Source: Nitrospinota bacterium (GTDB taxonomy: Bacteria > UBA8248). Taken from it: 10,453 nucleotides of DNA. Below, in pieces: positions 1 to 10,453 of the stretch (within the stretch, counting starts at the first letter, position 1; every line of letters starts with the position of its first letter). Below the pieces are notes generated by a model. It did not search any database. It saw only the letters and a list, made by a program, of their open reading frames with translations, and was not told the DNA's origin. Position numbers and translations under genes: made by a program. Where the stretch lies: contig JASLZZ010000107.1 of NCBI GenBank assembly GCA_030754595.1, positions 1 to 10,453 of the forward strand, in the 5' to 3' direction.

Positions 1-42
1 GATGTCATTGACGATCTTTTCAGAGGACACTTCCTTGCTCAT
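1..42 (-). CDS. 5' end of the next gene of the operon, truncated by the window (MSKEVSSEKIVNDI...); product unknown
   Basis: Minus strand reads GGAAGGAG-CGTGAG-ATG: a strong Shine-Dalgarno 6 nt before an ATG at 42. The frame is open to the window edge and starts 41 bp after the M20 gene stop. Confidence 0.7.
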   Translation of the reverse strand, partial: MSKEVSSEKIVNDI

Positions 43-83
43 CTCACGCTCCTTCCAAAGATGAATGGGTCAGAAAGTGTCTC

Positions 84-1313
84 TTAGCGTATCACCCCAA
101 ATGGTCCACTAGGTTCTGAACCCATACATTCGCCATGCACAAGGGAGACAAGCAGCCGGCTGTACACCTGGGAGGTGAAAAACAGCTGCTGGGTCTCAAC
201 AAATTCATCCACCTGATGAGATATTCCGGCGTCGCCCGGCCCGATAATGAGAGTGGGGATTCCAGCCCGCACAAAATGGTTCATGTCTGTCGCCCCGGTT
301 TTACCCGTCGGCTCAAAATCCTCCCCCAGCACTTCCTTGACCGCCTGGCGCGCGGCATTGACCAGAGGATGATCGAGAGGGATCTCCGCCGGGCCGCCCG
401 TCGTCGGAATATGCCGGTCTATTTTGGCCTTGATGTTCGGGTTCGACTTCATCACGCGGTTGAGCACCTCTTGTATCTCTCGTTCCGCCTCCTCTTCGCT
501 CTCGCCCGGAACCAGCCGCCGGTCAACCACCACCTCGCAGGCGTCGGGAATGACATTATCCTTGATCCCGCCCTTCGCCAACGTGACCGTGCAGGTGGGA
601 TGCCCGCATAGCCGGTGTTTCCTCTCGGTCAAGCTTTCCCCGTATTTTTCGAGTTCCTGTAAAACAGGCGCCATCGCGAAGATGGCGTTCACCCCCAGAT
701 CGGGCCGCGAGGAGTGCGCGAGCACTCCCTCGGTGACCACCACGGGACGGAAACTGCCGCGATGAGCGACGACAACCCGGCTCGATGAGGGCTCGCCGAC
801 CAACGCGTAATCCGCACTGAAATTCTCGACGAGCTTCCTCGCTCCGCGCGAGCAAAACTCCTCGTCCGCCACGGCCGTCATGACGATATCGCCCTTAAGC
901 CGGACGCCGGAGCGGGAAACCGCGCGTATGGCATAAAGCTGACAGGCCAGCGAGCCTTTCGCGTCCGTCGAACCCCGGCCGTATACCCGTCCATCGCGAA
1001 TTTCGCCGCCAAAGGGCTTTTCGCTCCAGCCCTCTCCTGCGGGGACAACATCGATATGGGTATTGAACGCGAACGAGGGAGTTCCCTCTGCGCCGCGAAG
1101 CCGTCCGATGACATTCGGGCGGTCGGGCAAAACCTCCTGAAGCTCGACCTCGCAGCCGCTCTCCTTCAGGTGTTCGGCCACATACCGCGCGATTTCCTTC
1201 TCGGGGACATCGGGATTCGTCGAATCGATTTGAACCAGATCGGACAAAAGACTCGACACCTCCGACTCGGAGATGTTCGATAGAATCGCATCAACGTCCT
1301 TGTTCTTGTTCAA
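84..1313 (-). CDS. M20 family metallo-amidohydrolase/deacylase (ArgE/DapE-like), about 409 aa
   Basis: All canonical M20 motifs are present: FNTHIDVVP (HxD), GRGSTDAKG, ADEEFCS, VGEPS, AHSSRPDLGVNAI, NVIPD, GATDM, SHQVDE. The track start at 1493 overlaps the upstream gene. TTG at 1313 follows GAGGTG at 6 nt spacing; GTG at 1322 is the alternative start. Confidence 0.9.
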   Translation of the reverse strand: MNKNKDVDAILSNISESEVSSLLSDLVQIDSTNPDVPEKEIARYVAEHLKESGCEVELQEVLPDRPNVIGRLRGAEGTPSFAFNTHIDVVPAGEGWSEKPFGGEIRDGRVYGRGSTDAKGSLACQLYAIRAVSRSGVRLKGDIVMTAVADEEFCSRGARKLVENFSADYALVGEPSSSRVVVAHRGSFRPVVVTEGVLAHSSRPDLGVNAIFAMAPVLQELEKYGESLTERKHRLCGHPTCTVTLAKGGIKDNVIPDACEVVVDRRLVPGESEEEAEREIQEVLNRVMKSNPNIKAKIDRHIPTTGGPAEIPLDHPLVNAARQAVKEVLGEDFEPTGKTGATDMNHFVRAGIPTLIIGPGDAGISHQVDEFVETQQLFFTSQVYSRLLVSLVHGECMGSEPSGPFGVIR

Positions 1314-1350
1314 ATCATTCACCTCAATTAGCGCAAAACGATCTTTTTTC

Positions 1351-2508
1351 TCAGCCGACAACCAGATCGCGAGAAAAATTCGTGATGACCTCACAACCTG
1401 TATCCGTAACCGTAAGAGTTTCGCTGAGACCGAAACCCCACTTCTCGTCCACCCGAAGGGCCGGAGGCAAATGGAAAACCATTCCCGCCTCAATTACCCG
1501 ATCATCGTTTTGCTTTAAATCCATAATCGCGCCCTCACCCCATCCCGGCGCGAAACCGATGCCCACCGAGTAGCCAAGCCGCTTTTTGTAATACTCGTAG
1601 AGGTCTTTTTTCCGCAGAATTCCCGTGCATGCCTCGTCCACCTCGCCCGAAGTCACGCCGGGCCGAATGGCGACGATGGCCGCCTCAAGCCCTTCGTTCA
1701 GCGCATCCCACATTTTTTGCATGCGATCGGGGGGCGGCCCAATAACGGCGGAGCGCATGAGCGGTCCCGTATAGCGGTTGAATACGCCGCTGACCTCAAC
1801 CAAAAGCGTATCGCCCGTTTCCATTTTTCGGCGGCGAAACGAGGTGTGCGCAACAGCGGACCTGGGCCCTGAAGTTATAATGGGCGAAGTCGTAAACGGC
1901 TCGCTACCCGCACTGATCATCCCCGCAGCAGCCGCAGCAGCTACATCGTTTTCCGAATTTCCCTCCCGGGCGGCCTCAAGGGACTTTGCCATTCCCGCTT
2001 CGGTTATTTTTGCCGCCTGGCGGATGTATTCGATCTCGGTGGGAGATTTCACAAGACGGCCTTTTTCGACAGTCCCGCCCAAATCCCGCCATGTAACTTC
2101 CGGAAGGGACTCCTCGATTCGTTTTAGATTCCTGGAGGTCAACCAGTTGCTCGTGCCTTCATAGCCGATTTTCGCCGCGCCCAAACCACGATCTTCGAGA
2201 ACTCTTTTAGTCTCCGAAATCGGATCGTCCGTATCTTCCCAGATGACAACATCACTCACCCACGAGTAGTAATCCGCAAGGCGGCTTTCAAGACCCCGGC
2301 AAAGCAATGTGGGATCTCCAGAGCGGGGAACCAGGAGGAACTGATAGTTGGGGGTACCCGTCGTTTGATAGCCGGACAGATAAAAAACATTGTGGGTCTG
2401 GTGCACCAAGAGAGCATCGGCATTTTCCGCTTCAAGCTCTTTCTGGACTGCAGTAACACGCCCCCGAAACTCTTCTTCGGAGAAGATTAAGTCTTTTTCA
2501 AGCATCAT
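1351..2508 (-). CDS. M24 (creatinase/prolidase-fold) hydrolase, EutD/DoeA ectoine-hydrolase-like, probably metal-independent; paralog 2
   Basis: N-terminal FSEEEFRGRV...NVFYLSGY (Creatinase_N-like), RLVKSPTEIEYIR, AHTSF, VEVSGVFNRYTGPLMRS, KRLGYSVGIGFAPGWGE, GMVFH, SETLTVTDTGCE. GGGGGTG precedes ATG ATG (start 2508 or 2505). Confidence 0.88.
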   Translation of the reverse strand: MMLEKDLIFSEEEFRGRVTAVQKELEAENADALLVHQTHNVFYLSGYQTTGTPNYQFLLVPRSGDPTLLCRGLESRLADYYSWVSDVVIWEDTDDPISETKRVLEDRGLGAAKIGYEGTSNWLTSRNLKRIEESLPEVTWRDLGGTVEKGRLVKSPTEIEYIRQAAKITEAGMAKSLEAAREGNSENDVAAAAAAGMISAGSEPFTTSPIITSGPRSAVAHTSFRRRKMETGDTLLVEVSGVFNRYTGPLMRSAVIGPPPDRMQKMWDALNEGLEAAIVAIRPGVTSGEVDEACTGILRKKDLYEYYKKRLGYSVGIGFAPGWGEGAIMDLKQNDDRVIEAGMVFHLPPALRVDEKWGFGLSETLTVTDTGCEVITNFSRDLVVG

Positions 2509-2530
2509 AACACCCCCGTGACGATTAAAC

Positions 2531-3694
2531 TCATCGAACAGCCAGTTCGCGAGAGAATTTCGTGATCACCTCACAACCGCCATCGGTAACAAGAATCGTC
2601 TCACTCAAGCCAAATCCCCAAATACCATCCACCCGAAGCGCCGGCGGCATGTGAAATACCATTCCTGTCGCGAGTTCACGGGTATCCCCCCGTTTTAGAT
2701 CGATGATATGGCCGTTTCCCCAGTCGGGCGGAAATCCCACTCCGACCGAATAGCCGAGGCGCTTCCGGTAATTATCGTAAAGACCCGCCTTTTCGATGAC
2801 GGCCGTGCACGCCGCATCGGCCTCGCCGGAAGTGACCCCGGGCCGAATAACGGCGATGGCCGCCTCAAGCGCTTCGATAAGGACGTTCCACATGCCCTGA
2901 AGACGCTCGGGCGGTTTCCCGACAACGGCGGAGCGCATCAGCGGCGCCGAATAGCGGTAATACGATCCGGTCCACTCGAGAAGGACGGTATCGCCCTTTT
3001 CGAGCTTTCTGCGCAAAAAAGAGGTATGCGCAACCGCCGAGCGGGGGCCCGATGTCAGGATAGGCGACATGGTCAGCGGCTCGCTTCCAGCCGCGATGGT
3101 CGCGGCGGCTCCGGCGGCCGCCACATCGTTTTCACTGGCCCCATCGCGAATCGCCTCGATGGCCGCCTGCATCCCGGCCTCGGTGGTGCGCGCGGAGCGG
3201 CGGATATATTCGATCTCGGCGGGCGACTTGATCATCCGGCCCTCTTCCACTATTCCCGCCTGATCGGACCACTCCGCCCCGGGAAGAGCGTTCTTAAGGC
3301 TCGCGAATACCCGCGTTGTGAAAGAGGGGCTCGTCCCTTCATAGCCGAGATGACCCGAGGCGATCCGTTTTTCCTCGAGCAGCGATCGCGTCAACTCGAC
3401 CGGATCTTCGTCGTCTTCCCAGACGACGATATCCTCAAACGGCGTGTAGTAGCGTCCCAGATCCCCCTCCAGCCGCCTGAGGAAAAGCGTGGGCTCACCC
3501 GACCGGGGCACCAGTACGAACTGGTAATTGTTCTGACCAACCGTCTGGTAGCCCGTCAGGTAATTCATGTTGTGAATTTGAAAAACTAAAACGGCGTCCA
3601 CACCACGCTCGGCCAAAATCTCTTGCACAGCCGAAACGCGGCCGCGGTATTCCCCTTCCGAGAACGCCAGTTCCTTCTGTATTTTCGTTGTCAT
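2531..3694 (-). CDS. M24 (creatinase/prolidase-fold) hydrolase, EutD/DoeA ectoine-hydrolase-like, probably metal-independent; paralog 1
   Basis: FSEGEYRGRV...NMNYLTGY, RMIKSPAEIEYIR, AHTSF, LEWTGSYYRYSAPLMRS, KRLGYSVGVGFPPDWG (resembles the EutD GYxxGxxYPPDWGE segment), SETILVTDGGCE. Aligns without gaps to the neighbouring paralog (about 230/385 identical by hand count, about 60%). Confidence 0.88.
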   Translation of the reverse strand: MTTKIQKELAFSEGEYRGRVSAVQEILAERGVDAVLVFQIHNMNYLTGYQTVGQNNYQFVLVPRSGEPTLFLRRLEGDLGRYYTPFEDIVVWEDDEDPVELTRSLLEEKRIASGHLGYEGTSPSFTTRVFASLKNALPGAEWSDQAGIVEEGRMIKSPAEIEYIRRSARTTEAGMQAAIEAIRDGASENDVAAAGAAATIAAGSEPLTMSPILTSGPRSAVAHTSFLRRKLEKGDTVLLEWTGSYYRYSAPLMRSAVVGKPPERLQGMWNVLIEALEAAIAVIRPGVTSGEADAACTAVIEKAGLYDNYRKRLGYSVGVGFPPDWGNGHIIDLKRGDTRELATGMVFHMPPALRVDGIWGFGLSETILVTDGGCEVITKFSRELAVR

Positions 3695-3710
3695 TTAAAA
3701 GTTCAGACCT

Positions 3711-4721
3711 TTACTTGTTGTATTCGTTCGTCCAAAGGTGTCCTTCTCGAAGATCCAGTTTTTCCTTGAGGACGCCGCCGGCATGCATGGTGTTCACCAT
3801 GTTGGCGATAGCCGTTTTCCTGAGCTTTCCGTCCCGCGGCAGCGCGGGCAGGAAATCTTTCAGCGTATCCTTGAGCACCACTTTTTGGGCTTTTTTGAAC
3901 CAGTTCTTTTTCAAAAGATCGACCGACTCATCCAGATTGTCATGGAGATAGTTCACACCCTTCTTCAGCGCGCGTATGTAGGCCCGCACGGTATTGCCGT
4001 TGTCCTTCAACCAGCCTTCCCGGACCGCATACATCGAATAGGCGTAGCTCCTGAATTCGGGCACGTCGCCGGACGTGCTTTTAATGATGATTTTTCCGAA
4101 TCCCCCTCGTACGGCCGTTCCGGGCCGGGGGGGCGAAAGCATGAAACCGTCGATCTGTCCCGTGCGCAACGCGGCGAGGAGATTTGTTCCGCCGCCAATC
4201 GGGATGATGGTGGCATCGCGATCCGGATCGAGGCCCGCCTTCTTGAGGTAATAGCGTGTGTAGAGGTCGGTTACGGCGCCGCGGCGCGTGATGCCGATCT
4301 TAAGTCCCTTCAATCCCTTGTAGCGGGCCATCAGGGGGATTTTGCGGGAGAGGCCGAGCCTGTCCGCAACGACCTTGTTCATGACGAAATCCATCGTCAT
4401 GCGGTTACTCACGCCATAAATCCATTTCATGTTCTTTCCGTTTTTCCGCAGACCCAGCATGTCTTTCGCATTCAGAAGGGCAATTTCGGCCTGTTTCGTA
4501 CTAAGGAAGATCGCGCTGAACTTTCCGCTCTTAATGCGCTGAACGTCCAGGTCGATCCCCTCGGCTTTGAAAAATCCTTTCGATTTAGCGACATAGGCGG
4601 CCGAGTTATAGGAAATACGAAAATCCGCGTAAGTCACCTTGGTCGCCGCGTAGGCGGCGGAGCCGAAAGCCAATACCATGATCGCGGCAAATCCAAAAAT
4701 GAAGAATCGGGTCTTGCTCAT
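3711..4721 (-). CDS. ABC transporter substrate-binding protein, NitT/TauT (SsuA/THI5/NMT1-like) family, 336 aa
   Basis: AGGAGG RBS before ATG 4721. Sec signal peptide MSKTRFFIFGFAAIMVLAFGSAAYA|A. Family segments YVAKSKGFFKAEGIDL, LKGLKIGIT, LKKAGLDP and AALRTGQIDG. Adjacent to a permease and an ATPase. Confidence 0.9.
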   Translation of the reverse strand: MSKTRFFIFGFAAIMVLAFGSAAYAATKVTYADFRISYNSAAYVAKSKGFFKAEGIDLDVQRIKSGKFSAIFLSTKQAEIALLNAKDMLGLRKNGKNMKWIYGVSNRMTMDFVMNKVVADRLGLSRKIPLMARYKGLKGLKIGITRRGAVTDLYTRYYLKKAGLDPDRDATIIPIGGGTNLLAALRTGQIDGFMLSPPRPGTAVRGGFGKIIIKSTSGDVPEFRSYAYSMYAVREGWLKDNGNTVRAYIRALKKGVNYLHDNLDESVDLLKKNWFKKAQKVVLKDTLKDFLPALPRDGKLRKTAIANMVNTMHAGGVLKEKLDLREGHLWTNEYNK

Positions 4722-4732
4722 GTTCTTTCCTC

Positions 4733-5632
4733 CTATCCGTTGGGAACGACTCCTTCGGGACCCGGCGGGCGCCACCGAAGAAATCGCTTCTCCAGAAAAG
4801 AAACTACTCCGTTCATACAAACGACCATTATTAAAATAGAGAATATCGCGGCGAAAGCTGCGGCAATATCCCATTCGCTCTGAGCGTCAATGATCATAAA
4901 GCCGATTCCGCGGTTCGATGATATGAATTCTCCGACCAGAGCCCCTATCATGCAACTGGGGACGGACACCCGCAATCCGGCGATGATAAACGGCAACGCC
5001 GAAGGAAGCTGTATCTTCCACATCCGCTGAAAAGGACCCGCCCCCATTACCGATACGACATTCAACAAATCCCGGCTCACTCCCTGGATCCCGGCGGTCG
5101 TGTTCACGAAATTCACGAAAAAAACGATCAGGCTTGCGACAGCGATTTTCGAGGAAATGCCGATGCCGAACCAGAGAATGAACAAAGGCGCCAGAGCAAT
5201 CCGGGGAATCCCGTAAAAGGCAACGATAAAAGGCTGAATCATTCTGTATATCGAGGGAAAATATAATAAGGCGAAACCACAGACAATACCGCCGATGGTT
5301 CCGATGAAGTAGCCGCTCAGGGCTTCGGTCAACGTGTATTGCGCGTGGTAGAGCATATCCCCGTTAATTACGTCGCCCACCCAACTCACAATGATGCGCG
5401 AGGGCTTGCTCACAAAAAAAGAATCGATAACGGGCCCCGAAAGAAGCTCCCAAAGTCCAACTACTGCGAAGAAAAAAACGATTCGGGTCAGGATGGTTTT
5501 CTTGCGAAGCTGCAAGACCGCGGCTGCCGCATCATCCTCGACCCGGCGCTCCAAGGCGCGCTCTTCACCGGTGAGAGGCGTCACCTCCCGGGAAACGATT
5601 TGCATCTTCGGTGGCGATCCGTCTGTGTTCAT
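4733..5632 (-). CDS. ABC transporter permease, NitT/TauT (SsuC/TauC-like) family, 299 aa
   Basis: ATG 5632 overlaps the ATPase stop (ATGA). Several hydrophobic helices. Motifs IPRIALAPLFILWFGIG, the EAA-loop region VMGAGPFQRMWKIQLPSALPFIIAGLR, and GALVGEFISSNRGIG. Confidence 0.92.
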   Translation of the reverse strand: MNTDGSPPKMQIVSREVTPLTGEERALERRVEDDAAAAVLQLRKKTILTRIVFFFAVVGLWELLSGPVIDSFFVSKPSRIIVSWVGDVINGDMLYHAQYTLTEALSGYFIGTIGGIVCGFALLYFPSIYRMIQPFIVAFYGIPRIALAPLFILWFGIGISSKIAVASLIVFFVNFVNTTAGIQGVSRDLLNVVSVMGAGPFQRMWKIQLPSALPFIIAGLRVSVPSCMIGALVGEFISSNRGIGFMIIDAQSEWDIAAAFAAIFSILIMVVCMNGVVSFLEKRFLRWRPPGPEGVVPNG

Positions 5633-6471
5633 TCGCTCGGATTCCTGTCTTTCGATTCCATGCGATCCGCGGTGATTTCTCTTTTCAGGTCGTTCCACAA
5701 AGCGTTGTAAAGATCCTGAAACCCTTCTTCTTCGTGGATATGGAACACGTCCCGCGGCCGGGGGATCGGAACTTCGTACATGGAGACTATTTGGCCAGGC
5801 GCTCTCGAGAGAACAACGATACGATCCGAAAGGACAATGCTCTCGATGAGATCGTGCGTGATAAAAAGTGTCGTCTGCTCCCGGTGTTCCCACAGCTTCA
5901 GCAATTCATCCTGCATGAGGGTTCGCGTCTGCGCATCGAGGGGGCCGAAAGGTTCATCCATCAAAATAGTATCCGGCTCCCATGCCAGGGTGCGCGCTAT
6001 GCCCACACGCTTCTGCATTCCGCCCGAGAGTTCATGGGGATAAAATTCCTCGAACCCCTCCAGGCCGACCATCTTGACGTATTGTCCCGCCCTCTCGCGG
6101 CTTTCGGAGGAGGAAAACCCCTTGAGTTCCATGGCAAGCTCGACATTGCCAAACAGGTTTCGCCAGGGAAGAAGGTTGTCCGACTGCGTGACATAGGCGA
6201 CATCGGTGTTGACGCCTTTGATGGCTCCTCCTTTATAGAGGAGGTCTCCCTCGGTGATATCTATCAGGCCCGCCACCATGTTGAGAAAAGTGCTCTTCCC
6301 GCAACCGCTGGGCCCCACCAGGGTGACAAACTCCCCCTTTTGAATGGACAGATCGAGTCCGCGCAAAGCCGTAAAAGCTTTCCCCACCCCTCCGGCTCTT
6401 CCCGGATATATTTTATATACGGCATGCGATTCGATGACATTTCCTTCCAAGGAACCGGAAGTCGTGTTCAT
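5629..6471 (-). CDS. ABC transporter ATP-binding protein, NitT/TauT (SsuB/TauB-like) family, 280 aa
   Basis: GAGGGA RBS before ATG 6471. Walker A GPSGCGKS, signature LSGGMQKR, Walker B ILMDEPFGPLD, H-switch ITHD, C-terminal PIPRPRD typical of SsuB/TauB. Confidence 0.95.
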   Translation of the reverse strand: MNTTSGSLEGNVIESHAVYKIYPGRAGGVGKAFTALRGLDLSIQKGEFVTLVGPSGCGKSTFLNMVAGLIDITEGDLLYKGGAIKGVNTDVAYVTQSDNLLPWRNLFGNVELAMELKGFSSSESRERAGQYVKMVGLEGFEEFYPHELSGGMQKRVGIARTLAWEPDTILMDEPFGPLDAQTRTLMQDELLKLWEHREQTTLFITHDLIESIVLSDRIVVLSRAPGQIVSMYEVPIPRPRDVFHIHEEEGFQDLYNALWNDLKREITADRMESKDRNPSE

Positions 6472-6481
6472 ATTTCCCTCA

Positions 6482-8194
6482 TCATGCGCCCGCCGGCGCA
6501 AGGCTAATCTCTGAAACTTCGACCACACTGCTCGTGGACACGTTCAGGATCACTGATTTTTTCCACTCGGCATCGTCTTGCTCGGGGAAATCTTCGCGGT
6601 AATGGGCGCCGCGGCTCTCTTTTCGGGCCATCGCCGCTGTAAGGCACAGGCGGCCGGTCTCGAGCAAATTCCCTATCTCCATGGCTGCTTCGAGCTCCTT
6701 GATATCGCCGAGAGGAAAACCGTCCAGTTCTTTAAGTTGGCTTTCAACATACGCCAAACCTTCCCGCAAGGAGGAGTCATTTCGGACAATACCCAAATGA
6801 CGCCACATCTTATCGCCGAGCTCGGCTCGCCAAGTCTTTAAGGTTTTCTTTCCCGTGGATTCGGCTCCACCCAAAGAAGAAATTTTTTCTTCCCACCTCT
6901 TCGCCGCCTCCTCAGGAAGGAGAGAGGATTCCTTATCTTTCGCATAAGCCGCGGCACTATCTCCGGCGCGCTTTCCGAAAACCTGGGTTTCGGGAAGCGA
7001 ATTGCTGTTTAACCGGTTGGCACCGTGAATTCCACCGGCGGTTTCTCCGGCGACATAAAGACCAGCCACGCTGGAAAGGCCGTCCTCGTCAATGGAAACC
7101 CCTCCCATGAAAAAATGAGCTTCCGGCGCGATGATCATCCGCATGTCGTGTGGTTTCTGGCCGCGTTGAACATAAACCCGGTTAAGGCGTGGATTCGTTT
7201 TGGCGAAATCACCGGGGGACACACCGGAAATATCCAGGAGCACTCCTCCGTCCGACACCTTCCCGCTGCGGATTTGATCGTATATCCCCCGGGCGGCGAT
7301 ATCCCTGAATGTGGCGTCTTTTCGGATCGGATCAAATTTTTCCATGAAACGCTCGCCATCCGAATTAAACAGCTTCCCGCCAACCGAAAAAGTGGATGGC
7401 TGAATCGGCATCCGCGTTTTATTGAACGGCTGGATGCAGCGCCAGGGGTAGAACTGGATGAACTCCATGTCCCGGAGACGCGCTCCCGCATGAAAAGCCA
7501 GAACATACCCGTCTCCGGTCACATCGACGGGATTGCTCGTCCACGAAAAAAGTCTTCCGCAACCGCCTGTCGCGAGAACAATCGCCTTGGCGCTGATAAC
7601 CACCAGTTCTCCCGCTGAGCGGTCCAGGCAAACGGCGCCGGCGATTTTTCCGCCCGAGACCAATAGCTCGAGAGCCATGGTGTTCTCGAAGGAAATAACG
7701 TTCCTCTCTTCGGCAGCGCGAACCAACGCCAGCGTCATGTCCAGGCCCAGGGAATTTTTGGGGCCCACCACCCTGGCAAACGTATGGTCTCCGCTCGGTG
7801 TTTTGAGCAAATGGCCGTCCGCCTGCTTCAGCTCAACCCCCCATTCAAGTAATTCTCGAAGGCGGGCGGGCGCTTCCTCGCAAACGAGCCGCGCCAGATG
7901 CGGGTCGTTCATCCACTTTCCGCCCTCCATCGTGTCCCGGTAATGCGTCTCGATGCTGTCGTTTTCCGCCGCCGCTCCTTCGGGAAACTCAAGAACGTCT
8001 TTCACCCCTCCCTCCGGGAGAACAGCGGCATACCCCGCCGTTGTATTCGCGGAAGAGCCGCTTCGCCCCAGCTTCCGCTTCACGGCAACGCCGACACGAA
8101 GACCGGGCTCTTCCGACGCCGCTATCGCCGCCCGAAGGGCCGCGAGGCCTCCTCCGACAATCAGGACATCGACCTCTTCCCGGCGCGGCTCCAT
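6482..8194 (-). CDS. FAD-dependent oxidoreductase of the fumarate reductase/succinate dehydrogenase flavoprotein/L-aspartate oxidase superfamily, 570 aa; substrate unknown
   Basis: ATG 8194 lies 4 nt after the upstream stop. Motifs DVLIVGGGLAALRAA (FAD Rossmann), IVLATGG, TGDG, DMEFIQFYP, AHFFMGG, GLYVAGE, HGANRLNSNSL, and C-terminal RKESRGAHYREDFP. No Fe-S subunit gene or nadA/nadC in the window. Confidence 0.9.
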   Translation of the reverse strand: MEPRREEVDVLIVGGGLAALRAAIAASEEPGLRVGVAVKRKLGRSGSSANTTAGYAAVLPEGGVKDVLEFPEGAAAENDSIETHYRDTMEGGKWMNDPHLARLVCEEAPARLRELLEWGVELKQADGHLLKTPSGDHTFARVVGPKNSLGLDMTLALVRAAEERNVISFENTMALELLVSGGKIAGAVCLDRSAGELVVISAKAIVLATGGCGRLFSWTSNPVDVTGDGYVLAFHAGARLRDMEFIQFYPWRCIQPFNKTRMPIQPSTFSVGGKLFNSDGERFMEKFDPIRKDATFRDIAARGIYDQIRSGKVSDGGVLLDISGVSPGDFAKTNPRLNRVYVQRGQKPHDMRMIIAPEAHFFMGGVSIDEDGLSSVAGLYVAGETAGGIHGANRLNSNSLPETQVFGKRAGDSAAAYAKDKESSLLPEEAAKRWEEKISSLGGAESTGKKTLKTWRAELGDKMWRHLGIVRNDSSLREGLAYVESQLKELDGFPLGDIKELEAAMEIGNLLETGRLCLTAAMARKESRGAHYREDFPEQDDAEWKKSVILNVSTSSVVEVSEISLAPAGA

Positions 8195-8198
8195 CTCG

Positions 8199-9095
8199 CT
8201 ATAACCCCCAATGTTCCTTGAGCAGGCGCGCGTTGAGATTCCACTGCCAACCGGCAGCGGCCTTGGGGGCGGTGCCCGCCTGGGCGCGCGCCCAGATGAG
8301 CCGGGCGCCAAGTTCTTTGGCGGCCTCGAAATCCGACCCGCCGGGCGGAGATGCCATCTCGACAACCAGCGTATCCGGGCGCACCCGGGAAAGCGCCTCC
8401 TTGTCCATCAATACCGCCGTAGCCGTCTGATAAATCACATCCATCTCGCCGATGGCATCCATATATTCTTCCATCGAAAGGGGGTGAAATCCCATCTGGA
8501 GAGCACGCGCCCGAACCTCGAGCCTTCTGGCCGCCACCCAGACCTCGGCCCCCAGTCTTCGGAGATCCCGCGCCAGCGTCACGGAAATCCGTCCAAAACC
8601 GATGACCATGCACTTCATGGTTGGAAAACATTCCTCGGTGTTTTGAATGGTAATGGCGACAACGCCCTCGGCCGTCGGAATCCCGTTCAGGATGGCGCGC
8701 TCGTCGTCTTCCTCGAACTCCTCAAGGTGAAAGCCAAGACGGCGGATAGAGTCCGTCAATTCAGCGGGTGCATGACCCACGAGAACAACGGCCCCTTTTT
8801 TGGCCAAGTTCAAGCATTCATCGGTCAGAAAAAGAGGAAAAGGCTCGTTATCGGAATAAAGGCTTCCGTCACGCCTGCTGCTGTGCACCGGAATCGGCAG
8901 GAAGATGGCATCAGCCTCCCGCACCGCATCGTCTATTGAATTTTCCTGGGGCTTTCCGGTGAACTTTTCGATCTCCGGCGGGCAACCGACCGCAGAGACT
9001 TCGAACCCCGCCTTAACGGCTTCCTCCACAATCCATATCTGTCGTCTGTCGCCTCCGAGAAAGGCCGCTTTTCGGCCTTCGAAAACCGCACTCAT
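8199..9095 (-). CDS. Dipicolinate synthase subunit A (DpaA/SpoVFA)-like NAD(P)-binding oxidoreductase, paralog 2, 298 aa
   Basis: ATG 9095 overlaps the upstream stop (ATGA). DpaA hallmarks: LGGDRRQ, DAIFLPIP, DDERAILNGIPTAEG, GFGRIS...LGAEVWVAARR...ARALQMG, EMASPPGGSDFEAAKELG, TAPKAAA. Confidence 0.85.
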   Translation of the reverse strand: MSAVFEGRKAAFLGGDRRQIWIVEEAVKAGFEVSAVGCPPEIEKFTGKPQENSIDDAVREADAIFLPIPVHSSRRDGSLYSDNEPFPLFLTDECLNLAKKGAVVLVGHAPAELTDSIRRLGFHLEEFEEDDERAILNGIPTAEGVVAITIQNTEECFPTMKCMVIGFGRISVTLARDLRRLGAEVWVAARRLEVRARALQMGFHPLSMEEYMDAIGEMDVIYQTATAVLMDKEALSRVRPDTLVVEMASPPGGSDFEAAKELGARLIWARAQAGTAPKAAAGWQWNLNARLLKEHWGL

Positions 9096-9997
9096 GACAA
9101 ACCGCCCTTCTGGAAGCGGGCAAGGATTCTCTCGCGGGAGAGATTCCATTGGTTTCTTCCGGTGAAGCGAGGGGCCGTCGCCGCCTGCCCTCTGAGCCAA
9201 TGCACAAGCACCCCTAGTTCATCGGCGGCCGTCCGGTCGGCGCTTCCGGGAGGAGATACAAGATCGATGTACACGCAATCCGGTTTCGCGCGCGAAAGCC
9301 GGTCGCGATTGAAAAATACTTGCGGAACCGTATTCACGGCAATCAGCATCTCATCCCAATGCCCGTCGATCTCACCCCAACCTAATGCGGAACAGCCCAT
9401 TTCCTGCGCCCGCGCCAGGGGAGCCAGCCGCCGCGCGGCGACAAAAACCCGCGCACCCATCGCCAGGAAAGTATGCGCCGTGGTTTCACCGACGCGGCCA
9501 AAACCGCCAATAAGAACATTGGCGTTGTGGACGGTTTCATCGGTGTGCTCAATCGCGCACCGAAGAGCACCCTCGGCTGTGGGGATGCTGTTGAAAATAG
9601 CGCATTCTTCTTCTTGCCCGATTTCTTCGATGTATATGCCGCGTGCTTCAGCGGCGGCGTGCATCTCCGGCGGAGCCCAGCCCATGATGACGATCGCGCC
9701 CTTCTCCATTTTGTCCATTGCTTCGGGGTCAAGGCGCACCGGGGAGGAAGAGAAGGGAGCATAGAGGTCGCCATTTTCGGCGAACCGAGGCATGGGACAA
9801 AATACGACGTTCGCTCCCGTGACCGCCTCGGCGGAGCTGGCGCTCATCGGGGCTTCAATGATCTCGGAAAGCTCTGAGGGACCACCGAAATATCGCACTT
9901 CGCAGCCCTCTGCGAGAAGCTTTCGGGTGATTTCAAGCTTGCGTCTGTCTCCGCCCAAAATAGCTGCTCGCAAACCGGCCAAATCCAGTTCAACCAC
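9092..9997 (-). CDS. Dipicolinate synthase subunit A (DpaA/SpoVFA)-like NAD(P)-binding oxidoreductase, paralog 1, 301 aa; first gene of the operon
   Basis: GTG start after AAGGGA. Motifs ILGGDRRKLEI, AIFNSIPTAEGA...AIEHTDETVHNANV (Bacillus DpaA, as recalled, has AIYNSIPT.EG...AIQHTD.TIHGS.V), GFGRVG, VAARR, ARAQEMG, NTVP, IDLVSPPG. Confidence 0.88.
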   Translation of the reverse strand: MVELDLAGLRAAILGGDRRKLEITRKLLAEGCEVRYFGGPSELSEIIEAPMSASSAEAVTGANVVFCPMPRFAENGDLYAPFSSSPVRLDPEAMDKMEKGAIVIMGWAPPEMHAAAEARGIYIEEIGQEEECAIFNSIPTAEGALRCAIEHTDETVHNANVLIGGFGRVGETTAHTFLAMGARVFVAARRLAPLARAQEMGCSALGWGEIDGHWDEMLIAVNTVPQVFFNRDRLSRAKPDCVYIDLVSPPGSADRTAADELGVLVHWLRGQAATAPRFTGRNQWNLSRERILARFQKGGLS

Positions 9998-10076
9998 GGA
10001 GCCATCCCTTCACCGAAAATTGCATATACCGGCTCAAATCTTCGGCTTTGACAAAATTTTGGGGGTGATTTCAAGC
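9925..10076. repeat. Exact 14-bp direct repeat GGGTGATTTCAAGC at 9925-9938 and 10063-10076
   Basis: Read directly from the sequence. One copy is in the 5' leader and the other inside the first dpaA-like CDS; the starts are 138 bp apart. Confidence 0.8.
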
Positions 10077-10091
10077 CCTTCGGGCATCCAA

Positions 10092-10135
10092 ATCATATCA
10101 AAAAGGACACATTAGTACCATTACAGTTACCTAAT
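10092..10135 (-). promoter_or_regulatory. Candidate sigma70 extended -10 promoter for the operon, with an overlapping imperfect palindrome (possible operator)
   Basis: In an AT-rich patch the minus strand reads TG-A-TATGAT (10100-10092), which fits TGnTAnnnT; the -35 match is poor. ATTAGTACCATTACAGTTACCTAAT (10111-10135) has ATTAG/CTAAT inverted arms. Confidence 0.35.
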
Positions 10136-10233
10136 AATTCTGGGCTCCGAAAAATTACATCCCCGTTCTGGCCGGGATAGGTACAGGCCGGTAATCGTGA
10201 CGAAGACCATTCAGAACCGGCCTGGAAACCACT

Positions 10234-10453
10234 GGTGCTCCGCAAAAACTCTATCTCAAATCAGGCTGCAAGAGGAACTAGCCGATAATCATGATGAAGC
10301 CCGTTCATCACCGGCCTGGAGAGCACCTTTTTCCCTTCTCCCAAGAGATGGCGATTCTCATTTACGCCTCTGGGAGCGCAACGTATCGGTTCAGGTATTC
10401 CGGGCCCCAGTGATGAATGTGGCCTACTCCGGTTATAATAGGATATCCGTTCT
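10234..10453 (-). mobile_element. Right end of an IS3/IS481-superfamily-like insertion sequence or remnant
   Basis: Transposase tail, followed about 10 nt after the stop by GAGTTTTTGCGGAGCACC (plus strand GGTGCTCCGCAAAAACTC, 10234-10251), a candidate terminal inverted repeat. The partner end lies outside the window. Confidence 0.55.
10261..10452 (-). CDS. C-terminus of an integrase-core (rve, DDE) transposase, truncated by the window edge
   Basis: My own translation (not in the ORF track): ERISYYNRSRPHSSLGPGIPEPIRCAPRGVNENRHLLGEGKKVLSRPVMNGLHHDYRLVPLAA*. YN..RPHSSLG is the IS3/IS481-type integrase-core tail, and RP..xGLHHxYR closes this transposase subgroup. Confidence 0.85.
   Translation of the reverse strand, partial: ERISYYNRSRPHSSLGPGIPEPIRCAPRGVNENRHLLGEGKKVLSRPVMNGLHHDYRLVPLAA

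What the first reader, a model, noticed from the sequence alone, without database searches (positions are those of the whole stretch)
84..9997. Candidate undescribed uptake and catabolism operon for an N-heterocyclic/cyclic amidine carboxylate, built around DpaA-like enzymes
Seen: nine co-oriented genes with ATGA overlaps or 4-37 bp gaps: 2x DpaA-like, FAD oxidoreductase, NitT/TauT ABC importer, 2x EutD-like hydrolase and an M20 deacylase, with a tenth gene following. Established: DpaA acts on a partly reduced pyridine dicarboxylate ring; EutD opens the cyclic amidine of ectoine to an N-acyl amino acid; M20 enzymes remove N-acyl or carbamoyl groups; THI5/NMT1-like binding proteins include pyrimidine binders. 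Inference: the set follows the logic of reductive pyrimidine degradation (ring redox, hydrolytic opening, deacylation) but uses entirely different protein families. Candidates are ectoine analogues, pyrimidine/imidazoline carboxylates or pyridine dicarboxylates. I do not recognise this combination as a characterised pathway.
Basis: partly seen in the sequence, partly recalled or inferred. Interest (0 to 1): 0.85.

Follow-up and report, generated by a model that had tools for sequence, protein, structure and literature searches.

The report
Uncharacterised amidine-type nitrogen compound catabolic operon
A marine bacterium related to nitrite oxidisers carries a conserved nine-gene operon that probably imports and breaks down a small nitrogen-rich organic acid resembling the osmolyte ectoine, using an enzyme combination that has not been characterised.

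Summary
The nine co-oriented genes are real and tightly packed: two ATGA overlaps and gaps of 4-28 bp. The family assignments hold: 2 DpaA-like, an SdhA/NadB-like flavoprotein, a NitT/TauT ABC importer, 2 DoeA-like M24 and an ArgE/DapE M20. The "tenth gene" is the start of a short ORF inside a dispersed repeat and is not part of the operon.

The set recurs in 4 of 51 genomes of the phylum and in one metagenome contig. The conserved core is not DpaA. Among 38 unrelated metagenome loci of at least 8 kb that hold this M24 subfamily, 19 carry the same flavoprotein subfamily, 14 an M20, 12 a second M24, and only 1 a DpaA-like gene.

The M24s have ectoine hydrolase (DoeA)-type residues in place of the peptidase metal ligands. 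The flavoprotein has lost the His-Pro-Thr dicarboxylate site (it reads QFYPW) but keeps the catalytic Arg. No DpaB is present.

Best reading (about 0.42): uptake, hydrolytic opening and deacylation of an ectoine-like amidine or N-acyl diamino acid, followed by flavin- and NAD(P)-dependent oxidation that releases ammonium. The substrate is unproven. My literature searches found no characterised pathway with this combination.

The parts
9998..10453 (.). Upstream non-coding/promoter region of the operon
   Evidence: About 250 bp next to the first gene are conserved with the G001 relative but not with L015. No Rfam family at E<=1. No sigma-70 consensus site. The 85-aa open-ended ORF at 10197-10451 (+) has no Pfam hit.
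9092..9997 (-). DpaA-like NAD(P)-binding protein 1 (301 aa)
   Evidence: Pfam DpaA_N 1.4e-22 plus 2-Hacid_dh_C. NF006162 223 bits, below the cut-off of 261. Best PDB match 2rir, 4.8e-39. Only five close clusters (86-93% x4, 55% x1), then <=40%.
8199..9095 (-). DpaA-like NAD(P)-binding protein 2 (298 aa), 37% identical to protein 1, start overlaps the stop of gene 1 (ATGA)
   Evidence: A predicted heterodimer with protein 1 reached the mark.
6482..8194 (-). Divergent SdhA/NadB/TfrA-type flavoprotein (570 aa), QFYPW subfamily
   Evidence: FAD_binding_2 2e-63 plus Succ_DH_flav_C 8.8e-23. All NCBIfam equivalogs are below cut-off. HPT is replaced by YPW and the TExxRGEG motif is lost, while R297, H360 and R394 are kept.
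5629..6471 (-). ABC transporter ATPase, NitT/TauT type (280 aa)
   Evidence: ABC_tran 3.1e-28. Best NCBIfam hits are TauB and SaoA, both below cut-off.
4733..5632 (-). ABC transporter permease (299 aa), ATGA overlap with the ATPase gene
   Evidence: BPD_transp_1 4.9e-30. SaoP/SsuC/TauC-like, below cut-offs. Start.
3711..4721 (-). Periplasmic substrate-binding protein, NMT1/SsuA-like (336 aa, signal peptide)
   Evidence: NMT1_2 1.4e-22 and NMT1 4.6e-17. TIGR01728 82.5 bits vs cut-off 163.5. Best PDB match 3qsl, 9.5e-14. RNA-library contigs identical to this gene.
2531..3694 (-). M24a, DoeA-type (non-peptidase) hydrolase (387 aa)
   Evidence: Peptidase_M24 plus Creatinase_N. NF038259 279 bits vs cut-off 575. 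DoeA 6twj 1.7e-50. E/Y/P at three metal-ligand columns.
1351..2508 (-). M24b, paralogue of M24a (60% identity, 385 aa)
84..1322 (-). M20 ArgE/DapE-family deacylase (412 aa as it stands); its last ~15 codons lie in the repeat
   Evidence: TIGR01910 283.8 bits vs cut-off 217.6. Best PDB matches are DapE 7uoi and ArgE 7rsf. 3' end compared with G001.
1..128 (.). Dispersed repeat carrying the start of a short ORF (the 'tenth gene'); not part of the operon
   Evidence: Pfam gave no hit for copies elsewhere in the genome.

Best explanation
This is one operon for the uptake and breakdown of a small, nitrogen-rich carboxylate. The substrate is most likely an ectoine-like cyclic amidine, or a closely related amidino or N-acyl diamino acid. 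Proposed steps follow, and all of them are inferred: no step is shown biochemically. (1) The NitT/TauT-type binding protein, permease and ATPase import the compound. (2) Two DoeA-type M24 hydrolases, possibly a heteromer or acting on two related substrates, hydrolyse the amidine C-N bond and open the ring to an N-acyl (di)amino acid. (3) The ArgE/DapE-type M20 enzyme removes the acyl group. (4) A diverged NadB/SdhA-type flavoprotein oxidises the product next to its remaining carboxylate. The flavoprotein keeps one carboxylate site and the catalytic arginine, but its second-carboxylate site is rebuilt with Tyr and Trp. In this lineage a DpaA-like NAD(P)-dependent heterodimer adds a further dehydrogenation or reduction of an imine or diamino-acid intermediate. 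The net yield is ammonium plus a central-metabolism acid. The core of M24, flavoprotein and M20 is a widespread uncharacterised module. The DpaA-like pair is a local addition.
For: Operon structure and conservation. DoeA likeness of the M24s: the best solved relative is ectoine hydrolase DoeA (1.7e-50), and the best NCBIfam models are the two ectoine hydrolase models. H223, E240, A251, R254, Y315, H348 and E365 match DoeA in the printed alignment, and all of these except A251 are invariant in 21 subfamily members. At three metal-ligand columns the window's two proteins read E/Y/P, whereas 14 of the genome's 25 M24 paralogues read D/H/E. The M20 passes the ArgE/DapE subfamily cut-off; by established knowledge, ArgE and DapE deacylate N-alpha-acyl diamino acids. 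Coupling in unrelated organisms: of 38 metagenome loci of at least 8 kb (L015 excluded), 19 hold the flavoprotein (13 at >=40% identity), 14 an M20 at >=35%, 12 a second M24, and 5 the same transporter type. QFYP is present in 20 of 23 such flavoprotein hits and in all 11 aligned sequences. Accessory genes in those loci point to amino-acid-type products: aminotransferases, a PLP dehydratase, EutA-like Amdase and GntR regulators. A 2026 survey (PMC13188858, section 8 read) describes putative non-canonical ectoine clusters with two eutD homologues, no eutE, and an M20 (abgB) in Bacillota. The flavoprotein keeps R297, H360 and R394 (NadB R290, H351, R386 by my count on the alignment). DpaA1+DpaA2 predicted complex: score 0.82 against a best control of 0.00. 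The mark was reached by 51 of 78 solved complexes and 2 of 108 mismatched pairs. The runs agree in at least 98% of contacts and the partner pLDDT is at least 90. Contigs from two RNA libraries are identical to pieces of the binding-protein, M24a, ATPase and flavoprotein genes; this is a weak hint only.
Against: No enzyme reaches an equivalog cut-off, and the ectoine hydrolase scores are about half the cut-offs. None of the canonical ectoine partners (doeB/eutE, doeC, doeD, eutA, eutC) is in the window. The PLP enzyme that follows in G001 scores higher for threonine ammonia-lyase than for EutB, and is below both cut-offs. No known ectoine transporter type is present (Ehu, Ueh/Tea TRAP; this list is recalled). 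The subfamily has invariant K311 and R354 where DoeA has Ala and Trp, which suggests a substrate with an extra negative charge, not ectoine itself. The role and direction of the flavoprotein and of the DpaA-like proteins are guesses. The complex pass may only reflect likeness to the solved DpaA homo-oligomer (2rir). RNA-library contigs can derive from DNA carry-over.
Confidence: 0.42

Rival explanations
1. Reductive route for an N-heteroaromatic or partly unsaturated ring carboxylate (a pyridine, pyridinium or pyrimidine carboxylate). The DpaA-like heterodimer runs dipicolinate-synthase chemistry backwards with NAD(P)H. The fumarate-reductase-like flavoprotein saturates the C=C next to the carboxylate. 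The M24 enzymes then open the resulting cyclic amidine or imine, and the M20 removes the acyl group.
For: DpaA-like fold with conserved GGDxR, IPTAEG and GxGR motifs. The flavoprotein is of the fumarate-reductase superfamily and retains the proton-shuttle Arg. A relative comes from low-oxygen water, where oxygen-independent ring reduction would make sense (PMC11373643, passages). Two metagenome loci pair the module with RutA/RutB-like luciferase-type monooxygenase and isochorismatase genes (L050, L054).
Against: Most loci with the M24-flavoprotein core have no DpaA-like gene (37 of 38), so ring dearomatisation cannot be the general first step. No ferredoxin or low-potential donor is encoded in the window. 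Many core-bearing loci have 66-74% G+C and carry monooxygenase genes (L019, L050, L054); I guess these come from aerobes. The characterised homarine operon homABCDER has a different make-up: a TgnAB-like flavin pair, a peptidase-like protein and an aldehyde dehydrogenase (PMC13236597, section 6 read; its supplements could not be opened).
Confidence: 0.15
2. Guanidino-acid (creatine-like) degradation. The M24 enzymes act as amidinohydrolases that release urea, as creatinase does. The genome's urease then yields ammonium, and the flavoprotein oxidises the remaining amine, as sarcosine oxidase does in creatine catabolism.
For: Creatinase_N plus M24 architecture, and creatinase structures among the PDB hits (1chm 1.2e-18). 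Urease alpha subunit present in the genome (975 bits, cut-off 680). A creatininase and a hydantoinase-B gene lie on contig C36 of the same genome. NitT/TauT transporters are linked to guanidine metabolism (recalled).
Against: Similarity to DoeA is far stronger than to creatinase (1.7e-50 vs 1.2e-18). An M20 deacylase has no obvious role after urea release, yet it co-occurs in 14 of 38 loci. No guanidine riboswitch or any other Rfam family was found upstream.
Confidence: 0.13
3. Ordinary peptide salvage: Xaa-Pro dipeptidases plus an M20 dipeptidase and a peptide importer. The redox genes are unrelated neighbours.
For: Sources name the relatives 'Xaa-Pro dipeptidase'. The phylum has a large M24 expansion, mostly with intact metal ligands.
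Against: The window's M24s lack the metal ligands at three checked columns. The transporter is NitT/TauT type, not Opp/Dpp. The flavoprotein co-occurs with the M24 in 19 of 38 unrelated loci. Overlapping start and stop codons link the redox and transport genes.
Confidence: 0.05

Closest known systems
Ectoine/hydroxyectoine catabolic clusters (doeABCD of Halomonas elongata; eutABCDE-ssd-atf of Ruegeria pomeroyi)
   Same: An M24 hydrolase of the DoeA/EutD type with the same non-metal active-site residues, followed by a deacylase. It is clustered with an importer. A threonine-dehydratase-like PLP gene follows in the G001 relative..
   Different: Scores are about half the family cut-offs. There are two or three M24 paralogues. 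An M20 stands in place of the DoeB/EutE deacetylase. There is no DoeC/DoeD or EutA/EutC. The importer is NitT/TauT type. A flavoprotein and DpaA-like genes are added. K311 and R354 are invariant where DoeA has Ala and Trp.
Dipicolinate synthase DpaAB (SpoVFA/SpoVFB)
   Same: DpaA_N plus Rossmann domain architecture. The GGDxR, IPTAEG and GxGR motifs are conserved. It is paired with a flavoprotein gene..
   Different: Below both equivalog cut-offs. No DpaB in the genome. Two paralogues in tandem. The C-terminal motif is W-x-R-G-Q-A-G-T-A-P instead of P-G-L-P-G-K-V-A-P. The neighbouring flavoprotein is SdhA-like, not DpaB-like. These two are the only DpaA-like genes in the genome.
L-aspartate oxidase NadB / thiol:fumarate reductase TfrA / SdhA flavoproteins
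   Same: FAD_binding_2 plus Succ_DH_flav_C. The catalytic Arg and the His/Arg carboxylate site are kept. No Fe-S subunit is adjacent, as with NadB..
   Different: His-Pro-Thr reads Tyr-Pro-Trp. The TExxRGEG motif is absent. NadB Glu121 aligns with Ser. Below all cut-offs. It forms its own subfamily, found next to DoeA-type M24 genes.
Reductive pyrimidine degradation (PydABC)
   Same: The formal logic of ring redox, hydrolytic ring opening and removal of an N-acyl or N-carbamoyl group.
   Different: No shared protein family. The order of steps here is unknown.
Creatinine/creatine degradation (creatininase, creatinase, sarcosine oxidase)
   Same: A non-peptidase M24 amidine-bond hydrolase coupled to a flavin amine oxidation.
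   Different: The M24s are much closer to DoeA than to creatinase. The flavoprotein family differs. An M20 is present.

Membership tests
Dipicolinate synthase subunit A (NF006162 / TIGR02853) | Score at or above the curated equivalog cut-off | tested here: not met
   223.0 and 221.9 bits vs cut-off 261; 201.1 and 193.1 bits vs cut-off 319.65.
Dipicolinate synthase subunit A (NF006162 / TIGR02853) | DpaA_N domain followed by an NAD(P)-binding Rossmann domain | tested here: met
   PF16924 at 1.4e-22 and 5.4e-18, plus PF02826. GGDxR, IPTAEG and GxGR are invariant in the alignment.
Dipicolinate synthase subunit A (NF006162 / TIGR02853) | Partner subunit DpaB encoded in the genome | tested here: not met
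   The best TIGR02852 match in G000 is 22.4 bits vs cut-off 229. The genome is 96.9% complete, so absence is likely but not proven.
Ectoine hydrolase DoeA/EutD (TIGR02993, NF038259) | Score at or above the curated cut-off | tested here: not met
   TIGR02993: 202.9 and 189.5 bits vs cut-off 613. NF038259: 279.4 and 293.2 bits vs cut-off 575.
Ectoine hydrolase DoeA/EutD (TIGR02993, NF038259) | DoeA-type residues in place of the M24 metal ligands | tested here: met
   H223, E240, A251, R254, Y315, H348 and E365 match DoeA 6twj in the printed alignment. E/Y/P at three ligand columns, against D/H/E in 14 of 25 paralogues. That these are DoeA's functional residues is inferred from position; the structure paper was not held.
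Ectoine hydrolase DoeA/EutD (TIGR02993, NF038259) | Clustering with doeB/eutE, doeC/doeD or eutABC | tested here: not met
   None in the window. The PLP gene after M20 in G001 scores 229 bits vs the EutB cut-off of 413.
Ectoine hydrolase DoeA/EutD (TIGR02993, NF038259) | Hydrolysis of ectoine to N-acetyl-2,4-diaminobutyrate | not testable with these tools
   Needs an enzyme assay.
SdhA/FrdA/NadB flavoproteins | FAD_binding_2 plus Succ_DH_flav_C domains | tested here: met
   2e-63 and 8.8e-23.
SdhA/FrdA/NadB flavoproteins | His-Pro-Thr motif and TExxRGEG motif of the dicarboxylate site (their roles are recalled from the literature) | tested here: not met
   QFHPT of E. coli NadB aligns with QFYPW. 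LTEALRGEG aligns with IQPSTFSVG. Y249 and P250 are invariant in 11 of 11 aligned relatives.
SdhA/FrdA/NadB flavoproteins | Any curated equivalog cut-off (TfrA, NadB, SdhA) | tested here: not met
   Best is TfrA, 430.8 bits vs cut-off 718. NadB TIGR00551 is 326.7 bits vs cut-off 452.75.
SdhA/FrdA/NadB flavoproteins | Adjacent Fe-S subunit (SdhB/TfrB) | tested here: not met
   None in the window. A TfrB-like Fe-S/CCG protein does follow the more distant (33-36% identity) flavoproteins in L021, L066 and L080.
ArgE/DapE family deacylase (TIGR01910) | Score at or above the subfamily cut-off, with M20 catalytic and dimerisation domains | tested here: met
   283.8 bits vs cut-off 217.6. PF01546 and PF07687 present. 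The ArgE and DapE equivalogs are all below cut-off.
NitT/TauT ABC importer | NMT1/SsuA-like binding protein with TauB/TauC-like ATPase and permease | tested here: met
   PF13379 and PF09084. The best ATPase and permease models are TauB/SaoA and SaoP/SsuC/TauC, all below their equivalog cut-offs. The family is therefore met, but the substrate class is not assigned.

The most novel reading that the evidence does not exclude
The pairing of a DoeA-type M24 with a QFYPW flavoprotein defines a widespread, so far unstudied catabolic pathway for an abundant nitrogen-rich solute. The solute would be ectoine-like but probably carries an extra acidic group. The flavoprotein would be a new substrate class within the SdhA/NadB superfamily. 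The DpaA-like heterodimer would be the first non-sporulation function of that fold: a cyclic-imine or diamino-acid dehydrogenase. In marine UBA8248 bacteria, which have been counted as nitrite oxidisers, the operon would open a route from dissolved organic nitrogen to ammonium.
Probability: 0.3. Interest if true: 0.75.

Novelty: new variant of a known kind. Interest (0 to 1): 0.6.

Why it matters
If the reading is right, three enzyme families gain new reactions: a non-peptidase M24, an SdhA/NadB-type flavoprotein with a rebuilt substrate pocket, and a DpaA-like dehydrogenase outside sporulation. A gene module seen in many soil, sediment and marine metagenome contigs would also gain a function.

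The host matters too. The closest named relative is classed in phylum UBA8248 and was analysed as a nitrite oxidiser of oxygen-deficient waters, and the same paper states that marine Nitrospinota show no evidence of heterotrophy (PMC11373643, passages). An importer-linked operon that releases ammonium from an organic solute would change how the nitrogen and carbon budgets of this group are read. So would the phylum-wide expansion of M24 hydrolases noticed here.

Tried and rejected
Tools and papers that were unavailable:
- The DoeA/EutD structure paper (Mais et al. 2020) is not held. DoeA's ligand contacts could therefore not be compared; only the HMMER alignment to 6twj was used.
The statement that hom is different rests on section 6 alone.

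Searches that found nothing useful:
- Rfam: no riboswitch or other RNA family in the window at E<=1.
- Promoter scan: 0 sigma-70-like sites (shuffles give a mean of 4.6). The terminator-like sites all lie inside coding sequence.
- Plasmid search: the flavoprotein has only 31-35% matches.
- Plasmid search: the M24 has 40-42% matches. One is pAtC58, in a different cluster (GntR, ABC, M20, enolase-superfamily protein, M24). This gave no functional lead.
- Ectoine synthase: only sub-threshold matches in the genome.
- The ORF upstream of the window is unrelated to the 2,4-diaminopentanoate-dehydrogenase-like gene found upstream in L015.
- Pfam gave nothing for the repeat's ORFs on contig C102. The IS3-like impression of the 'tenth gene' rests on recall only.

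Limits of analyses that did run:
- M24 tree: only the quick tree finished. Hits under 90% coverage or under 38% identity were dropped before it was built.
- hits covering under 50% of the query were dropped.
- Parts of the window without RNA-library contigs say nothing about expression.

Full report
**What is there.** The window is a whole 10,453-bp contig of a 3.55-Mb, 138-contig genome with 60% G+C. Nine long ORFs lie head to tail on the minus strand. I chose start codons by ribosome sites and by the lengths of orthologues. With those starts the junctions are two ATGA overlaps (DpaA1/DpaA2 and ATPase/permease) and gaps of 4, 10, 11, 16, 22 and 28 bp. Pfam and NCBIfam give these assignments:
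- two DpaA_N plus Rossmann proteins;
- an FAD_binding_2 plus Succ_DH_flav_C flavoprotein;
- an ABC ATPase, a permease and an NMT1/SsuA-like binding protein with a signal peptide;
- two Creatinase_N plus Peptidase_M24 proteins whose best models are the two ectoine hydrolase models;
- an M20 that passes the ArgE/DapE subfamily cut-off (283.8 vs 217.6 bits).
Every equivalog-level model is below its cut-off. No Rfam family, no sigma-70 consensus site, and no intergenic terminator-like site on the coding strand were found.

**The tenth gene.** Window 1-128 is a dispersed repeat. Five other contigs of the genome carry it at 90-98% identity. In metagenome contigs its depth is 44-107, against about 5 for the rest, and contigs diverge at 128/129. 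Compared with the G001 relative, the repeat replaces the last few codons of the M20 gene. The ORF start in it (MSKEVSSEK...) recurs at the other copies. Its N-terminus reminds me of IS3 OrfA, but Pfam gave no hit. In G001 the gene after M20 is a threonine-dehydratase-like PLP enzyme, which is below the cut-offs for both IlvA and EutB.

**Conservation in the lineage.**
- DpaA-like 1 has only five close clusters in the large protein collection (86-93% x4 and 55% x1), then drops to <=40% generic DpaA. The search found 484 hits at E<=0.001 among 8000 scored candidates.
- The tandem DpaA-like pair is present in G000, G001, G010 and G014. That is 4 of 51 genomes of the phylum at E<=1e-10. The relatives search gave 5 of 41 genomes at E<=0.001, where the fifth (G016) is a weak partial match.
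- L001/G001 and metagenome locus L015 carry the same genes in the same order: nine in L001/G001 at 93-96%, and the first eight in L015 at 88-94% before that locus runs out.
- G010, a closed genome of another genus, has DpaA1, DpaA2, flavoprotein, ATPase, permease, binding protein, three M24 genes and M20. A convergent MscS-type channel and trehalose synthesis genes follow.
- The named relative is classed in GTDB UBA8248, formerly part of Nitrospinota. It is reported to have urease, and it is not among the two groups (NOB6, NOB9) reported to lack nxrB (PMC11373643, passages). G000 has a urease alpha gene.
- The window's DNA stands in 18 DNA runs labelled seawater, marine or hydrothermal-vent metagenome. 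Two of these may be its own source. In total 20 runs from 11 studies were listed.

**The core is the M24 plus a special flavoprotein.** The M24 subfamily has many 45-52% relatives in several phyla; 682 hits at E<=0.001 among 8000 candidates, with the best 120 listed. Of these, 406 were confirmed and the best 80 were kept as 76 loci. I ran tblastn with the window's proteins and dropped hits covering under 50% of the query. Among the 38 loci of at least 8 kb, other than the same-lineage L015, the counts are:
- 19 with a flavoprotein homologue (13 at >=40% identity);
- 14 with an M20 at >=35%;
- 12 with a second M24;
- 5 with the same transporter type;
- 1 with a DpaA-like gene (L034, 39%);
- 1 with a PLP dehydratase;
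- 29 with at least one of flavoprotein, M20 or transporter.
Pfam annotation of 122 ORFs from 12 loci shows recurring accessory genes: GntR-FCD regulators, Amdase (EutA-like), SDR, class I/II aminotransferases, MmgE/PrpD, HpcH aldolase, luciferase-like monooxygenase with isochorismatase, and a TfrB-like Fe-S/CCG subunit beside the more distant flavoproteins (L021, L066, L080). An MmgE/PrpD gene also lies upstream in G010.

**Active sites.**
- M24: the alignment to DoeA 6twj (1.7e-50) shows the window's M24a sharing H223, E240, A251, R254, Y315, H348 and E365 with DoeA. All of these except A251 are invariant in the 21-member alignment.
- The genome has 25 M24 genes. At three metal-ligand columns, 14 read D/H/E and only the window's two read E/Y/P. 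These two are therefore amidine-bond hydrolases of the DoeA kind, not peptidases.
- K311 and R354 are invariant in the subfamily, where DoeA has Ala and Trp. This hints at a more acidic substrate than ectoine.
- Flavoprotein: against E. coli NadB (1chu), QFHPT aligns with QFYPW, LTEALRGEG with IQPSTFSVG, and Glu121 with Ser. Arg290, His351 and Arg386 are kept. The residue numbers are counted on the alignment, and their roles are recalled from the literature.
- Y249 and P250 are invariant in 11 of 11 aligned relatives. QFYP was found in 20 of 23 neighbouring flavoprotein hits. The histidine that carries covalent FAD in SdhA aligns with Gly.
- The enzyme thus keeps one carboxylate site and the catalytic arginine, but has an aromatic pocket where the second carboxylate of succinate or aspartate would sit.

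**The DpaA-like proteins.**
- They keep the family's invariant motifs.
- Together with L034 and P0006, they share W-x-R-G-Q-A-G-T-A-P where canonical DpaA has P-G-L-P-G-K-V-A-P.
- No DpaB is present, and the genome holds no other DpaA gene.
- A predicted DpaA1-DpaA2 complex scored 0.82 against a best control of 0.00. The mark was reached by 51 of 78 solved complexes and 2 of 108 mismatched pairs. The runs agree in at least 98% of contacts and the partner pLDDT is at least 90.
- The interface is symmetric and lies on the conserved IPTAEG helix. The pass may therefore reflect the solved DpaA homo-oligomer (2rir) rather than this particular pair.

**M24 paralogy.** I built a quick tree of 90 M24 rows; the careful search did not finish, and hits under 90% coverage or under 38% identity were dropped. 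It puts the copies from the window, L015 and G010 in one clade of 8 rows (support 100), split into an a-type and a b-type that predate the two genera. In other lineages (L016-L018, L020) the two tandem copies belong to different, older clades. Having two different M24s per cluster is thus a recurrent state reached more than once.

**Expression.** Contigs from two RNA libraries of different studies are identical to pieces of M24a (2878-3038, 3354-3568), the binding-protein gene (five pieces between 3677 and 4811 from X19, two more from X20), the ATPase gene (6182-6314) and the flavoprotein gene (7441-7622). DNA carry-over cannot be excluded, and the contigs do not bridge genes. This is only a weak hint of transcription.

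**Interpretation.** The best-supported reading is uptake, DoeA-type hydrolysis, ArgE/DapE-type deacylation, then flavin- and NAD(P)-linked oxidation that releases ammonium. The substrate would be ectoine-like but probably not ectoine itself. They are weighed in their own sections. A 2026 survey describes putative non-canonical ectoine clusters with two eutD homologues, without eutE, and with an M20 in Bacillota (PMC13188858, section 8 and passages). Those are homology-based proposals too. The homarine operon is different as far as section 6 describes it. Seven full-text searches found no paper that describes this gene combination. Subscription-journal papers are largely outside that library.

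**Verdict.** The emphasis should move from DpaA to the pairing of the M24 with the QFYPW flavoprotein. The function remains unproven.

Noticed in passing
whole genome G000 and the 51 genomes of its phylum: Large expansion of the Peptidase_M24 family. G000 has 25 matches. 49 of 51 genomes of the phylum have 8-33 matches, including 16-19 in genomes of only 2.0-2.2 Mb; two genomes of one genus have 2. In G000, 14 of 25 keep D/H/E at three metal-ligand columns. This suggests heavy investment in Xaa-Pro-type peptide or amidine hydrolysis in a group treated as chemolithoautotrophs.
   Followed up: partly
window 1-128: Dispersed repeat with at least six more copies on five other contigs of G000, at 90-98% identity. 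It sits at contig ends, cuts off the native 3' end of the M20 gene, and carries the start of a short ORF. It may be an insertion-sequence end; the IS3-like N-terminus is recalled only and Pfam gave no hit.
   Followed up: partly
G000:C36 (L093 1-3313): A 3.3-kb contig encodes the end of a hydantoinase-B/oxoprolinase, a 2,4-diaminopentanoate-dehydrogenase-like protein and a creatininase. This points to further catabolism of cyclic amide or guanidino compounds in the genome.
   Followed up: no
L015 1837-2844 (minus strand): In the 88-93% relative from a metagenome, a 2,4-diaminopentanoate-dehydrogenase-like gene (DAP_DH_C plus DapB_N) lies divergently, 850 bp upstream of DpaA-like 1. An enzyme of that family acting on 2,4-diamino acids would fit a 2,4-diaminobutyrate intermediate. 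It is not at this position in the window or in G010.
   Followed up: partly
L012 3326-8961 (G010, downstream of the cluster): In G010 the cluster is followed by a convergent 818-aa MscS-type mechanosensitive channel, DUF5752, trehalose synthase TreT and trehalose phosphatase. This places it in an osmolyte-related neighbourhood.
   Followed up: no
L021 10415-12001, L066 8838-10316, L080 1178-3079: The more distant (33-36% identity) QFYP flavoproteins are followed by a fused 2Fe-2S/4Fe-4S/CCG protein like TfrB. Some versions of the module are thus wired to a thiol or quinone-type electron route.
   Followed up: no
L091 (A. fabrum C58 plasmid At, record 465274-474647): A 40% identical M24 homologue sits in a cluster of GntR, amino-acid ABC transporter, M20, enolase-superfamily protein, M24, 'CTP synthase', VOC protein, hydroxyacid reductase and D-amino-acid transaminase. 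It appears uncharacterised and is genetically tractable.
   Followed up: no
window 3500-6000: G+C falls to 0.51-0.54 over the transporter genes, against 0.59-0.62 at the DpaA-like and M20 ends and 0.60 for the genome.
   Followed up: no
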